DNA of 64,000 bases from Escherichia coli O157:H7 (GTDB lineage: Bacteria > Pseudomonadota > Gammaproteobacteria > Enterobacterales > Enterobacteriaceae), in the NCBI RefSeq assembly GCF_013167455.1, contig NZ_CP038330.1; one strand, 5' to 3'. The position numbers were made by a program. Below are positions 12,001 through 15,000 of the stretch, one piece after another (positions within the stretch are counted from its first letter, which is position 1; each line of letters opens with the position of its first letter).

Positions 12001-15000
12001 AAGACACTGAGGAAGCGCCGGAAGCTGAGGCTTCAGTGCTTTCCCTGGGGAGAGCCACGGCTCATTGCTTTAAACCCTATCCGGACACAAAAAATTTCTA
12101 TTACGAGGCCTAAGCCTCACCCAAACAGGAGGATCAACATGCGATACCAGGTATTTAAAACGAAGGAAGGGGGCCAGCCGGTGTTTACGGCACCGTGGTA
12201 CTGGTTGGCCTCTGCCATTGCTCACTGGTCATCTCTTAACTGGGATGCCTGTCGAATCGTAGACAGCAAGGTGGATGAAACAAGGCTCTGTTGGGCCAAG
12301 GCTCTACCGGCTGGGAAAAAAAAGTAATTTGGATGGAGTGATTATGAGGTTAGGTTTTGTGAAAAATACGGGGGTTTCAGCGTTCCTGGTAGCCATGCTG
12401 GTGGTGGCCCCTCAGGTATGGGCAGAAACCTTTACTGCGAAGGTTGTGGGGGTGTCTGACGGTGATACGGTCAAGGTCCTGACTGAACAAAGCTGTGACT
12501 CCGGGAAAGATTGCCGGAGCGGCAAAATCCAGTACCGGGTAAGGCTGGCGGAAATCGACACCCCAGAGAAGAAACAACCCTACGGCTCAAAGGCGAAACA
12601 GGCGTTGTCCGATCTGGTGTTTGGTCGAATGATTAAAGTCGAGCAAATCGACAAAGACCGTTATGGCCGTCTGGTCGCCAACCTTTATGTCGATGGCAAA
12701 TGGGTCAATGCCGAAATGGTCCGTTCTGGGAGTGCGTGGGTGTACCGGCAGTACGCCAAAACACCGGAGCTGTTCAAGCTGGAGGCCGAAGCCAAAGCCG
12801 ATAAGCGAGGTCTCTGGGCATTACCGGAATCGGAGAGAACTCCCCCTTGGGAGTGGCGAAGAAAGCACTAACCACACCCCAGAGTATGCAGGTGTAAACA
12901 GTAACCAAGAAAACAAACAGGAATAACGATGAACAAAAGTGAACTGATTATGAAAGTGGCCGAAGACGCTGACATTAGCAAAGCAAAGGCCGAAGCTGCG
13001 GTAAATGCGCTGATCAACTCAGTGACAGAGGAGCTTAAAGCGGGTGGGACAGTAGCGCTCACTGGGTTTGGTACTTTCCACGTTAAGGAACGCGCAGCGC
13101 GAACCGGGCGGAATCCCCAGACTGGAGAGAACATCCAGATCGCGGCGGCCAACATTCCTGGGTTCAAAGCTGGTAAGGGGTTGAAAGACTCCGTGAACTA
13201 GATCTTAATCATGTGACACATGAATAAGGTTTACATAAGGCTCCTTCGTGGGAGCCTTATTCATATCAGACATGAATAAGGGGAAGGGATGAGATTGTCG
13301 TCAACTCAAAAAGACGTTTTGTTCATTCTATACGCAATTGAGGCCGGTGGAAAAGCCGAGCCTGTACCAGGTGTAAAAATACTGGAGATGATCAATTCAG
13401 CTCGCCAGAGCGGTATTCATGGAACGAACTTCCGAACGTCATGCCACACGCTGGTGGAGAACGGCCTGTTGAACAAGTACCGGAATGCTTCTCTAAAGCT
13501 GGCCTTTAGGCTGACCGACGATGGCAGGGAACGTGCAGGAGAGATATACCGAAAACGGCTGGAAGAAGAGCAAGAGAAGTAATACGCCCCATAACGGGGC
13601 GTATCGAGTTAAACGGCAAAGCCGTAGTGGGTGCCGTCCGGAAGTTCAACATCGAGGCGTAGCTTGCCACCGGAGGCCTCAACGTACCGCTTAATGGACG
13701 ACAGCTTGAGATCTCGTCCAGGTTTTTCCATCTCGGAGACTGTCGGCTGTCTCACACCCAGAGATGCAGCAATTTCCCCCTGGGTAAGGTTCATGCGATC
13801 ACGAAGCTCTGCCAAGTGGATGTTCAGTAACATCTCAGTGGCCGCTTTCTGTGCTTTGGCAACAACCTCAGGCTTTTCTGTTGCCAGCATTTGGTCAAGA
13901 GTTCTTGCCATAACGTCACTCCTTCTTCAATTTATCCAAGTGCGCCGCAAACTCACGGTCTGCAATTGGGATCATTACTTCATAAAACCTTTTCTCGTCC
14001 CCGGTCTTGTTACCGGCGCAGAGAAGAATCCCCTTACGCTTTGGATCGAACGCAAAGAACGCTCTGATAGGATCTCCTTTGCTTTGGACCCGAAGCTCTT
14101 TCATGTTGCTGTAGGATGAACCGTTAACAGTATCCGCGTATGGCCTCGACAGCATGGGGCCTCTATCTCGCAGCACCATCATCGAAGCCAGCACGTTTGC
14201 TCTATCGGTATCATCCAGAGCATCGAACCACTCATCAAAGGTGTCGGTTGTCTCGATGACCCACATGATTTCTCCTTACTTAATATAGGTGCAATCCTAT
14301 ATAGATTCAAACCTATAATCAAGAAAAATCGGCGGCGATGGGGGCCGAAATGTCAGTAAGTAGTCATGTGACTAAAATAGGGGGTAGAATAAGCCTCGAT
14401 ATAGTCATGTGACTAAAAGGTGTCCTGAATGAACAACCTACCCCTACTGCTCGATGCAAGAGAAGCCATTGACTACTACCACCAGCATCCAGGCATGACT
14501 GATGCAGAAAAGGCCTATGTGGTCGCGTTCCTAAGCGGAGAGGGGCGTTCAAACAGTCAGATCAGAGAGGATCTGGGTATTGAGAAGGTCTATACGGTTA
14601 CACACCTGAAACGCGCCGGTACGCTATCGGAGGAAGAGCTAACACTCTGGCTCAGAAATCCACGCAAGATCACCCTGGGGCATGTGAGGGCCGTGGCTAA
14701 GTTACCTTTCAGCAAGAGAGAAAAGCTCCTGAGGGATCTCCTGCATACCAGGACACCGGTTCATAAATTTGAGGCGATAGCGAAGGGCAAAGAAGTGGAC
14801 AGGGATGCAGACATTAAGCGCCTGGAGACCCTGATGAGCGATGCTACGGGTAGGCCTATCAAAGTTCGCTATAACCCCGCGAAGCGCTCCGGGGAACTGA
14901 CGCTGGGATTCTTCACGCTCGATGACCTGGATGACGTGTGCAAGGCTTTGGGGTTTGATCCAAGCGAGCAGATGTAAACCAGAAAACTTTCACATGTGAA

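What the first reader, a model, noticed from the sequence alone, without database searches (positions are those of the whole stretch)
13609..14418. HigB/HigA-like toxin-antitoxin pair with tandem palindromes in its promoter
Toxin-first order, with a RelE/ParE-like toxin and an XRE-family antitoxin. Two copies of TAGTCATGTGACTAAAA, 41 bp apart, sit between the toxin start and the divergent ParB-like gene and are likely autoregulatory operators.
Basis: partly seen in the sequence, partly recalled or inferred. Interest (0 to 1): 0.35.

Follow-up and report, generated by a model that had tools for sequence, protein, structure and literature searches.

The report
Known IncC higBA; repeats serve neighbour gene
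The toxin-antitoxin pair is the already published higBA addiction module of IncC resistance plasmids, and the two palindromic repeats next to it are not its operators but the conserved control sites of the neighbouring ParB-like regulator gene.

Summary
The window is the backbone of an IncC (IncA/C2) conjugative resistance plasmid. higB (13916-14266, minus) and higA (13609-13911, minus) form a toxin-first pair. Two exact copies of TAGTCATGTGACTAAAA lie at 14361-14377 and 14402-14418.

The TA reading is correct but already published. Qi et al. 2021 showed toxicity, rescue, mRNA cleavage and plasmid addiction for this locus.

The operator reading is not supported:
- Qi's functional clone ends at 14360, one base before the first repeat.
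- Five higBA relatives in unrelated genomes lack the repeat. They share a 60-bp control region with two overlapping TATAG-N8-CTATA palindromes (window 14284-14317) over the promoter.
- The palindrome TTAGTCA-NN-TGACTAA lies 26-78 bp upstream of the 182-aa ParB-like regulator gene (14429-14977) in 11 of 11 relatives at 40-78% identity. None of them has higBA nearby.
- One relative with a different recognition helix has a different palindrome of the same design.

Most likely the repeats are autoregulatory operators of this CTPase-less ParB-like protein. Binding has not been tested. Interest is low for the TA and modest for the regulator.

The parts
13609..13911 (-). higA antitoxin (100 aa, XRE-type HTH); vcrx027 of pVCR94
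   Evidence: Pfam HTH_37 29.3 bits and HTH_3 28 bits, both above cut-off. Closest solved relatives are M. tuberculosis HigA2 (E 2.7e-6) and HigA3. Could not be deleted in pVCR94 (PMC4207636).
13916..14266 (-). higB toxin (116 aa, Gp49/RelE-ParE superfamily); vcrx028
   Evidence: Pfam PF05973, E 5.8e-23. Experimentally toxic and neutralised by HigA; ribosome-dependent mRNase (PMC8265657). Homologues at 81-99% identity occur in many unrelated bacteria.
13581..13605 (-). Terminator-like hairpin just after higA, shared with the convergent 97-aa ORF
   Evidence: 11-pair stem, 6 G-C pairs. Consensus match only.
14282..14322 (-). The higBA module's own promoter and probable HigA operators. Two overlapping TATAG-N8-CTATA palindromes at 14300-14317 and 14284-14301. 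Promoter candidates are TTGAAT/TATATT (14310-14282, as in Qi et al.) or TTGATT/TAGGAT (14322-14294). SD GGAG at 14272-14275.
   Evidence: This is the only upstream stretch conserved among six higBA loci from unrelated contexts. Invariant bases are TTGA, ATATAG and CTATA, and similarity starts about 60 bp before the ATG. Promoter scan. HigA binding is inferred, not shown.
14361..14377 (+). Distal repeat TAGTCATGTGACTAAAA (palindrome 14361-14374). Overlaps the -35 of the predicted promoter of the 182-aa gene.
   Evidence: Promoter candidate TAGTCA-18-TAGAAT at 14361-14390. A matching site lies at -68 to -78 in most relatives.
14402..14418 (+). Proximal repeat TAGTCATGTGACTAAAA (palindrome 14402-14415). 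Ends 10 nt before the ATG and overlaps the SD-like AAAGGTG (14416-14422).
   Evidence: A site at -26 to -45 is present in all 11 protein-selected relatives.
14429..14977 (+). 182-aa ParB-like regulator (R55_24 'parB-like regulator'). It has a ParB-type HTH DNA-binding domain and a ParB_C dimerisation domain, and no N-terminal ParB/Srx CTPase domain.
   Evidence: Pfam ParB_C 32.3 bits only. Profile hits to the Spo0J C-terminal domain and the H. pylori ParB DNA-binding region. AlphaFold model pLDDT 87.9. Best fold matches are Spo0J, ParB, Noc and KorB DNA-binding domains. Named in PMC10954446.
14984..15005 (.). IncC parS site (AAAC-TTTCACATGTGAAA-GTCT), the known binding site of the plasmid's true ParB. 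It is distinct from the repeats.
   Evidence: Core at 14988-15001, one of 8 copies in the window. Sequence and ParB EMSA in PMC10954446.

Best explanation
Two separate control regions sit back to back in the 162-bp gap between higB and the 182-aa gene.

(1) higBA is a self-contained, mobile addiction cassette. HigB is a ribosome-dependent mRNase and HigA neutralises it. I infer that HigA or the HigBA complex represses the operon at two overlapping TATAG-N8-CTATA palindromes that cover the promoter (14284-14317).

(2) The two TAGTCATGTGACTAAAA repeats belong to the opposite gene. They are copies of a 16-bp operator, TTAGTCA-NN-TGACTAA. One overlaps the -35 of that gene's predicted promoter and the other sits between the promoter and the ribosome-binding site. 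The gene product is a dimeric ParB-like protein with a ParB-type HTH and a ParB_C dimerisation domain but no CTPase domain. I infer that it binds these palindromes and represses its own transcription.

Shown here or in papers: gene identities, TA function, the extent of the functional higBA clone, and the conservation and co-occurrence patterns. Inferred: who binds which palindrome, and the sign of regulation.
For: TA identity and function come and from PMC8265657 and PMC4207636.

The repeats are dispensable for higBA. Qi's forward primer maps to 14342-14360, so the clone (13553-14360) lacks both repeats. It still stabilised pACYC184, and its higBA transcripts still rose with ciprofloxacin.

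higBA has its own operator. Six higBA loci in unrelated contexts align only from about -60 onward, with invariant TTGA, ATATAG and CTATA. None of the five non-IncC loci has TAGTCANNTGACTA, even allowing 2 mismatches.

The repeat follows the regulator. All 11 protein-selected non-IncC loci (40-78% identity; two are near-identical and two are truncated genes) carry a palindrome at -26 to -45, 10 of them as the full TTAGTCA-NN-TGACTAA. Most have a second at -68 to -78. The surrounding intergenic DNA is otherwise unrelated. No higBA homologue, 97-aa ORF or HU gene lies within the fetched flanks of up to 2.5-3 kb.

In an unbiased scan for tandem palindromes in metagenomes, the regulator was the largest flanking family: 14 of 66 loci by profile search (15 by tblastn). 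higBA appeared only in the 4 IncC contigs.

L093 gives one case of covariation. Its recognition helix is IYKTSWLIGVG instead of VYTVTHLKRAG, and it has a 7+2+7 palindrome at -29 with a different sequence, TTTGTCT-CA-AGACAAA.

The most conserved protein segment is the predicted HTH recognition helix. The fold matches ParB, Noc and KorB DNA-binding domains, which bind 13-16-bp palindromes.

The ParB partner varies while the palindrome stays constant.
Against: No binding or expression experiment exists for the 182-aa protein or for HigA on either palindrome set. Promoter positions are consensus predictions only.

Co-occurrence cannot exclude another factor that travels with the regulator. The covariation case is a single locus with only 43 bp of upstream sequence.

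The repeats lie only 37-40 bp beyond the conserved higBA control region. A protein bound there could still modulate the divergent higBA promoter on the native plasmid.

The same TAGTCA-NN-TGACTA palindrome also occurs beside unrelated TetR-like genes in soil contigs. The motif alone therefore does not identify its binder.
Confidence: 0.72

Rival explanations
1. One reading: the two repeats are HigA or HigBA autoregulatory operators in the higBA promoter.
For: They are palindromic, tandem and lie upstream of higB in a divergent intergenic region. Type II antitoxins commonly bind tandem palindromes (general knowledge).
Against: Their centres lie 102 and 143 bp upstream of the higB ATG, beyond both candidate -35 boxes. 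The published functional, non-toxic, addiction-competent clone excludes them. Five higBA relatives (83-94% HigB identity) lack them and share different palindromes over the promoter. The repeats persist in 11 loci without higBA.
Confidence: 0.04
2. The repeats are centromere-like (parS-type) sites bound by a true ParB partition protein, not by the 182-aa protein.
For: Most relatives of the regulator lie next to ParA and ParB_N genes. Some loci have 3-5 copies, as centromeres often do. The palindrome has ParB-site-like size and symmetry.
Against: IncC ParB binds a different site, AAAC-TTTCACATGTGAAA-GTTT, by EMSA (PMC10954446). The repeats do not match it. The neighbouring ParB proteins belong to unrelated subfamilies while the palindrome stays invariant. 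In L093 an IncC-type ParA/ParB pair accompanies a changed palindrome and a changed regulator helix. IncC has only two copies, both at this one promoter.
Confidence: 0.07
3. The repeats control the 182-aa gene but are bound by some other plasmid or host factor. The gene product itself recognises other DNA or acts through protein contacts.
For: Binding is untested. The same palindrome is used beside TetR-like genes elsewhere. An unidentified extra IncC regulator is postulated in PMC10954446.
Against: The only gene found within the fetched flanks (up to 2.5-3 kb) of every locus is the regulator. Hosts range from Enterobacterales to marine gammaproteobacteria and an Endobugula symbiont, which argues against a host factor. 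The helix-operator covariation in L093 points to direct recognition.
Confidence: 0.14
4. The duplicated 17-mer is a chance or relic duplication without function.
For: There are only two copies and no experimental data.
Against: 0.05 matches are expected by chance. The palindrome and its distance to the start codon are conserved down to 40% protein identity while the flanks are unalignable.
Confidence: 0.01

Closest known systems
IncC plasmid higBA (vcrx028/vcrx027; Qi, Kamruzzaman and Iredell, mSphere 2021, PMC8265657)
   Same: It is the same locus. The sequence is 100% identical to hundreds of IncC plasmids. Their cloning primer maps to 14342-14360, and their predicted -35 TTGAAT and -10 TATATT are at 14310-14282.
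   Different: Nothing differs in the TA itself. The paper proposes a weak LexA box (14277-14296) and does not describe the TATAG-N8-CTATA palindromes. That LexA box is not conserved in higBA relatives, whereas the palindromes are.
HigBA-type operons with tandem HigA operators over the promoter (e.g. Rts1 hig of Proteus vulgaris; HigA2/HigA3 of M. tuberculosis)
   Same: Toxin-first order, an HTH-XRE antitoxin, and two palindromic sites overlapping the -35/-10 region. The Rts1 comparison rests on general knowledge.
   Different: The operator sequence here (TATAG-N8-CTATA, two copies sharing 2 bp) is inferred from conservation only. The toxin is of the Gp49/HigB-2 type, with no sequence hit to any solved structure.
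KorB, ParB and Noc DNA-binding proteins and their palindromic sites (OB, parS, NBS)
   Same: ParB-type HTH domain and C-terminal dimerisation domain. A 16-bp palindromic target placed at promoters, as for KorB operators. Frequent linkage to parA/parB genes.
   Different: There is no N-terminal ParB/Srx CTPase domain, so CTP-dependent clamping and sliding are not expected. The site sequence differs from IncC parS. In IncC it occurs only at the protein's own promoter.

Membership tests
HigBA type II toxin-antitoxin (RelE/ParE-superfamily toxin with HTH-XRE antitoxin) | Toxin gene precedes the antitoxin gene in one operon | tested here: met
   higB 13916-14266 and higA 13609-13911 lie on the minus strand with a 4-nt gap. 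Relatives have the same order.
HigBA type II toxin-antitoxin (RelE/ParE-superfamily toxin with HTH-XRE antitoxin) | Toxin belongs to the RelE/ParE superfamily (Gp49/HigB-2 type) | tested here: met
   PF05973, 81.2 bits against a 23.9 cut-off. The NCBIfam TIGR02683 hit is below its cut-off. There is no PDB sequence hit.
HigBA type II toxin-antitoxin (RelE/ParE-superfamily toxin with HTH-XRE antitoxin) | Antitoxin has an XRE/Cro-type HTH domain | tested here: met
   HTH_3 28 bits (cut-off 23) and HTH_37 29.3 bits (cut-off 27). Hits to HigA2 and HigA3 of M. tuberculosis at E 2.7e-6 and 4.5e-5.
HigBA type II toxin-antitoxin (RelE/ParE-superfamily toxin with HTH-XRE antitoxin) | Toxin arrests growth, antitoxin rescues, and the module stabilises a plasmid | not testable with these tools
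   Shown experimentally for this locus in PMC8265657. The antitoxin could not be deleted in pVCR94 (PMC4207636).
HigBA type II toxin-antitoxin (RelE/ParE-superfamily toxin with HTH-XRE antitoxin) | Autoregulatory operators at the operon's promoter are the TAGTCATGTGACTAAAA repeats | tested here: not met
   The repeats lie outside the functional clone, are absent from higBA relatives and are present without higBA. Conserved TATAG-N8-CTATA sites over the promoter are the better candidates.
ParB/KorB family (for the 182-aa protein) | N-terminal ParB/Srx CTP-binding domain | tested here: not met
   No ParB_N hit. The HTH starts at about residue 42 in the model.
ParB/KorB family (for the 182-aa protein) | ParB-type HTH DNA-binding domain | tested here: met
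   The profile matches H. pylori ParB residues 181-235 (E 7e-4). Foldseek top hits are Spo0J, ParB, Noc and KorB DNA-binding domains (E from 1.7e-3; TM normalised to target up to 0.68). Some homologues hit PF17762 HTH_ParB.
ParB/KorB family (for the 182-aa protein) | C-terminal dimerisation domain | tested here: met
   PF23552 ParB_C, 32.3 bits against a 23.8 cut-off. Spo0J C-terminal domain 5noc, E 6.7e-5.
ParB/KorB family (for the 182-aa protein) | Binds a specific palindromic site | not testable with these tools
   Indirect only: invariant TTAGTCA-NN-TGACTAA upstream of its gene in relatives and one covarying case.
IncC parS centromere sites | 14-bp core TTTCACATGTGAAA flanked by AAAC and GTTT | tested here: not met
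   The repeats are not among the 8 matches to the core at up to 1 mismatch. A true parS lies at 14988-15001 instead.

The most novel reading that the evidence does not exclude
The 182-aa protein may found an undescribed family of CTPase-less ParB-like repressors with an invariant 16-bp operator. In ICE- and plasmid-like elements that operator sits in the divergent region shared with a DUF2857(BisC-like)-AcaB activator operon, so the family could gate transfer or partition genes. In IncC the protein could also be the unidentified backbone factor that tightens repression of the parA promoter and is targeted by the SGI1 protein Sci (postulated in PMC10954446).
Probability: 0.1. Interest if true: 0.5.

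Novelty: already known. Interest (0 to 1): 0.2.

Why it matters
The TA module is a known stability determinant of IncC multidrug-resistance plasmids, so confirming it adds nothing new.

The useful correction is that its control region is the 60 bp next to higB, not the conspicuous repeats. This matters for anyone designing reporters, curing strategies or operator decoys against higBA.

The reassignment also gives a concrete, testable operator for an uncharacterised, conserved backbone regulator (R55_24). Its relatives sit beside partition genes and transfer-activator genes in many mobile elements.

Tried and rejected
1. The genome-contig scan with the regulator profile returned only 7 loci, 2 of them IncC. 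I therefore added loci by exact-protein look-ups, using all 12.

2. I looked for natural IS insertions separating higBA from the repeats (H1, H3). Both insertions lie outside the intergenic region and are uninformative.

3. HigB has no sequence hit in the PDB, so no structural membership test for the toxin was made.

4. The LexA box proposed by Qi et al. (14277-14296) is not conserved in higBA relatives. It was not pursued further.

5. I tested whether the repeats are diverged IncC parS sites and rejected this.

6. I tested whether the 97-aa ORF (annotated 'ParM') or the HU gene co-travel with the repeats. They do not.

7. Most metagenome loci with tandem TAGTCA-NN-TGACTA (51 of 66) lack the regulator. 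Seven lie beside TetR-like genes and others are 21/43-bp arrays. The motif alone is therefore not diagnostic.

8. Literature searches found nothing on the 182-aa protein beyond its label 'parB-like regulator'.

Full report
**What the window is.** The 1951 bases around the finding are 100% identical to several hundred IncC (IncA/C2) conjugative resistance plasmids from Klebsiella, Salmonella, Escherichia, Vibrio and others. In many records the coordinates match the window, so the window is the first 64 kb of an IncC backbone.

**Observation.** The sequence shows a 116-aa ORF at 13916-14266 (minus strand). It is followed after 4 nt by a 100-aa ORF at 13609-13911, and a divergent 182-aa ORF lies at 14429-14977.
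- The first ORF matches Pfam Gp49/PF05973 (E 5.8e-23).
- The second matches HTH_3 and HTH_37 above their cut-offs.
- The third matches only the ParB_C dimerisation domain.

TAGTCATGTGACTAAAA occurs exactly twice, at 14361-14377 and 14402-14418. Shuffles give 0.05 matches even allowing three mismatches. Each copy contains TAGTCA-TG-TGACTA.

**The TA pair is already known.** Qi, Kamruzzaman and Iredell (mSphere 2021, PMC8265657) studied this locus. They showed that HigB arrests growth, that HigA rescues, that HigB lowers AAA-rich transcripts, that G64V inactivates it, and that the cloned operon stabilises pACYC184. Carraro et al. (PMC4207636) could not delete the antitoxin gene vcrx027 in pVCR94.

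**The repeats are not part of the functional higBA unit.** Qi et al. cloned higBA with a 94-bp promoter region. Their forward primer, CTTACTGACATTTCGGCCC, maps to 14342-14360 on the minus strand. The clone therefore begins one base before the first repeat and lacks both. It was non-toxic and conferred about 99-100% plasmid retention, and its higBA transcripts still rose with ciprofloxacin. Their predicted promoter, TTGAAT-17-TATATT, lies at 14310-14282 and is also the only minus-strand hit near higB in my scan.

**higBA carries its own conserved control region.**
- HigB has many homologues at 81-99% identity in unrelated bacteria.
- I fetched five of them: a Marinospirillum-labelled NCBI genome contig, a JGI metagenome contig carrying a HigB named from Thalassospira, Xenorhabdus, Legionella pneumophila and an ENA 2.5-Mb contig. 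Each has higB-higA in a different neighbourhood.
- None contains TAGTCANNTGACTA, even with two mismatches.
- Their upstream regions align with IncC only from about 60 bp before the ATG, with invariant TTGA, ATATAG and CTATA.
- In window coordinates this gives two overlapping palindromes, TATAG-N8-CTATA at 14300-14317 and at 14284-14301. They cover both candidate promoters.
- These are the likely HigA or HigBA operators. That is an inference from conservation, not a binding result.
- The weak LexA box suggested by Qi et al. is not conserved.

**The repeats follow the neighbouring regulator.** The 182-aa protein has a family of about 183-aa homologues at 40-69% identity. I fetched eleven non-IncC loci chosen by protein similarity alone.
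- Each has a TAGTCA-NN-TGACTA palindrome, extended to TTAGTCA-NN-TGACTAA in 10 of the 11 loci, 26-45 bp before the regulator's start codon.
- Most have a second copy at -68 to -78, and some have three to five.
- The rest of the intergenic DNA is unrelated.
- Two of the eleven (L012, L087) are near-identical, and two (L011, L013) are truncated genes.
- No higB, higA, 97-aa ORF or HU homologue lies within the fetched flanks of up to 2.5-3 kb.

The reverse test was an unbiased metagenome scan for two TAGTCA-NN-TGACTA copies 20-35 bp apart. It gave 66 loci. The regulator was the largest flanking protein family (14 loci by profile search, 15 by tblastn). higBA appeared only in the four IncC contigs.

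**Who binds the repeats.**
- The regulator's AlphaFold model is confident (pLDDT 87.9).
- Its best structural matches are the DNA-binding domains of Spo0J, ParB, Noc and KorB, several solved on palindromic DNA. The C-terminal part matches the Spo0J dimerisation domain.
- It lacks the ParB N-terminal CTPase domain.
- The most conserved segment of the family, VYTVTHLKRAG, is the second helix of the predicted HTH. This fits an invariant operator.
- One divergent member (L093, 44% identity) has IYKTSWLIGVG there. It carries a 7+2+7 palindrome with a different sequence, TTTGTCT-CA-AGACAAA, at position -29. This is a single case of covariation, on a contig with only 43 bp of upstream sequence.
- The neighbouring ParB proteins vary. 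They are KorB-type in IncC, L002 and L093 and an unrelated ParB_N type elsewhere, while the palindrome is constant.
- IncC ParB is known to bind a different site, AAAC-TTTCACATGTGAAA-GTTT (PMC10954446). A copy of that site lies at 14988-15001.

In IncC the distal repeat overlaps the -35 of the candidate promoter TAGTCA-18-TAGAAT (14361-14390). The proximal repeat ends 10 nt before the ATG. This layout is typical of a repressor. A complete IncC plasmid has no further copies, which points to autoregulation only. I put 0.72 on the repeats being operators of the 182-aa gene bound by its own product.

**Rivals.**
- HigA operators: 0.04.
- parS-like centromere sites for a true ParB: 0.07.
- Another factor binding them: 0.14.
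- Chance duplication: 0.01.

The main caveat is that no binding or transcription data exist for the regulator, and promoter calls are consensus matches. A protein bound 37-40 bp beyond the higBA control region could still modulate the divergent promoter on the native plasmid.

**Novelty and interest.** The TA pair is already known and characterised. The reassignment of the repeats to an uncharacterised ParB-like regulator is new as far as my literature searches show. It belongs, however, to a familiar kind: an autoregulated HTH dimer with a palindromic operator, akin to KorB-type regulation without the CTPase domain. Overall interest is low (0.2). The more novel reading concerns the regulator family and its possible link to the unidentified IncC factor acting on the parA promoter. 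It is speculative (probability about 0.1).

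Noticed in passing
window 14988-15001 (also 4542, 5621, 9205, 9664, 22731, 40150, 43565): There are eight exact copies of the IncC parS core TTTCACATGTGAAA in the window. 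One lies 11 bp after the stop of the 182-aa regulator gene. In the 69% relative L002 the same site follows the regulator gene, and parB/parA are the next genes.
   Followed up: partly
L003, L006, L086, L087, L088 (relatives of the regulator): Outside IncC the regulator sits between a divergent operon and a convergent ParB_N/ParA pair. The divergent operon is a 360-430-aa ORF where present (absent in L086 and L088), then DUF2857 (BisC-like), then AcaB (PF08900). Extra TTAGTCA-NN-TGACTAA copies lie near the divergent operon in L086, L088 and L006. This suggests the regulator also controls that activator operon there.
   Followed up: partly
L093 1-2956: A divergent regulator homologue is the first gene of a same-strand regulator-parA-parB(KorB-type)-HTH_43 cluster. 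The layout recalls the korA-incC-korB operon of IncP plasmids. Its upstream palindrome is TTTGTCTCAAGACAAA.
   Followed up: partly
window 13204-13281: Two imperfect 26-nt repeats (CTTAATCATGTGACACATGAATAAGG and CTTATTCATATCAGACATGAATAAGG) flank a GGAGCC hairpin between the HU gene and the 97-aa ORF. The first shares TCATGTGAC with the finding's repeats. Their function is unknown.
   Followed up: no
window 13289-13582: The 97-aa ORF is annotated 'chromosome segregation protein ParM' in RefSeq, yet it has no Pfam or NCBIfam hit. It is far too short for ParM, so this is probably a misannotation. The real ParM/StbA gene is near 153.5 kb of the plasmid.
   Followed up: partly
PMC10954446 (IncC parAB053 promoter, window about 43.5 kb): The Kiss laboratory infers an unidentified IncC backbone factor, outside parAB053, that tightens repression of the parA promoter and is the likely target of SGI1 Sci. 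The 182-aa ParB-like protein is an untested candidate. No TAGTCA palindrome lies near parA.
   Followed up: no
L034, L037, L046, L062, L065, L069, L080 (soil metagenome contigs): Tandem TAGTCA-NN-TGACTA palindromes 34-40 bp apart lie beside TetR-like repressor genes in high-GC contigs. This is an unrelated use of the same palindrome.
   Followed up: no
L025, L051, L060, L075 (metagenome contigs): These contigs hold arrays of 6-20 TAGTCA-NN-TGACTA palindromes, spaced 43 bp apart, with no regulator homologue detected nearby. They could be iteron-like or centromere-like arrays.
   Followed up: no
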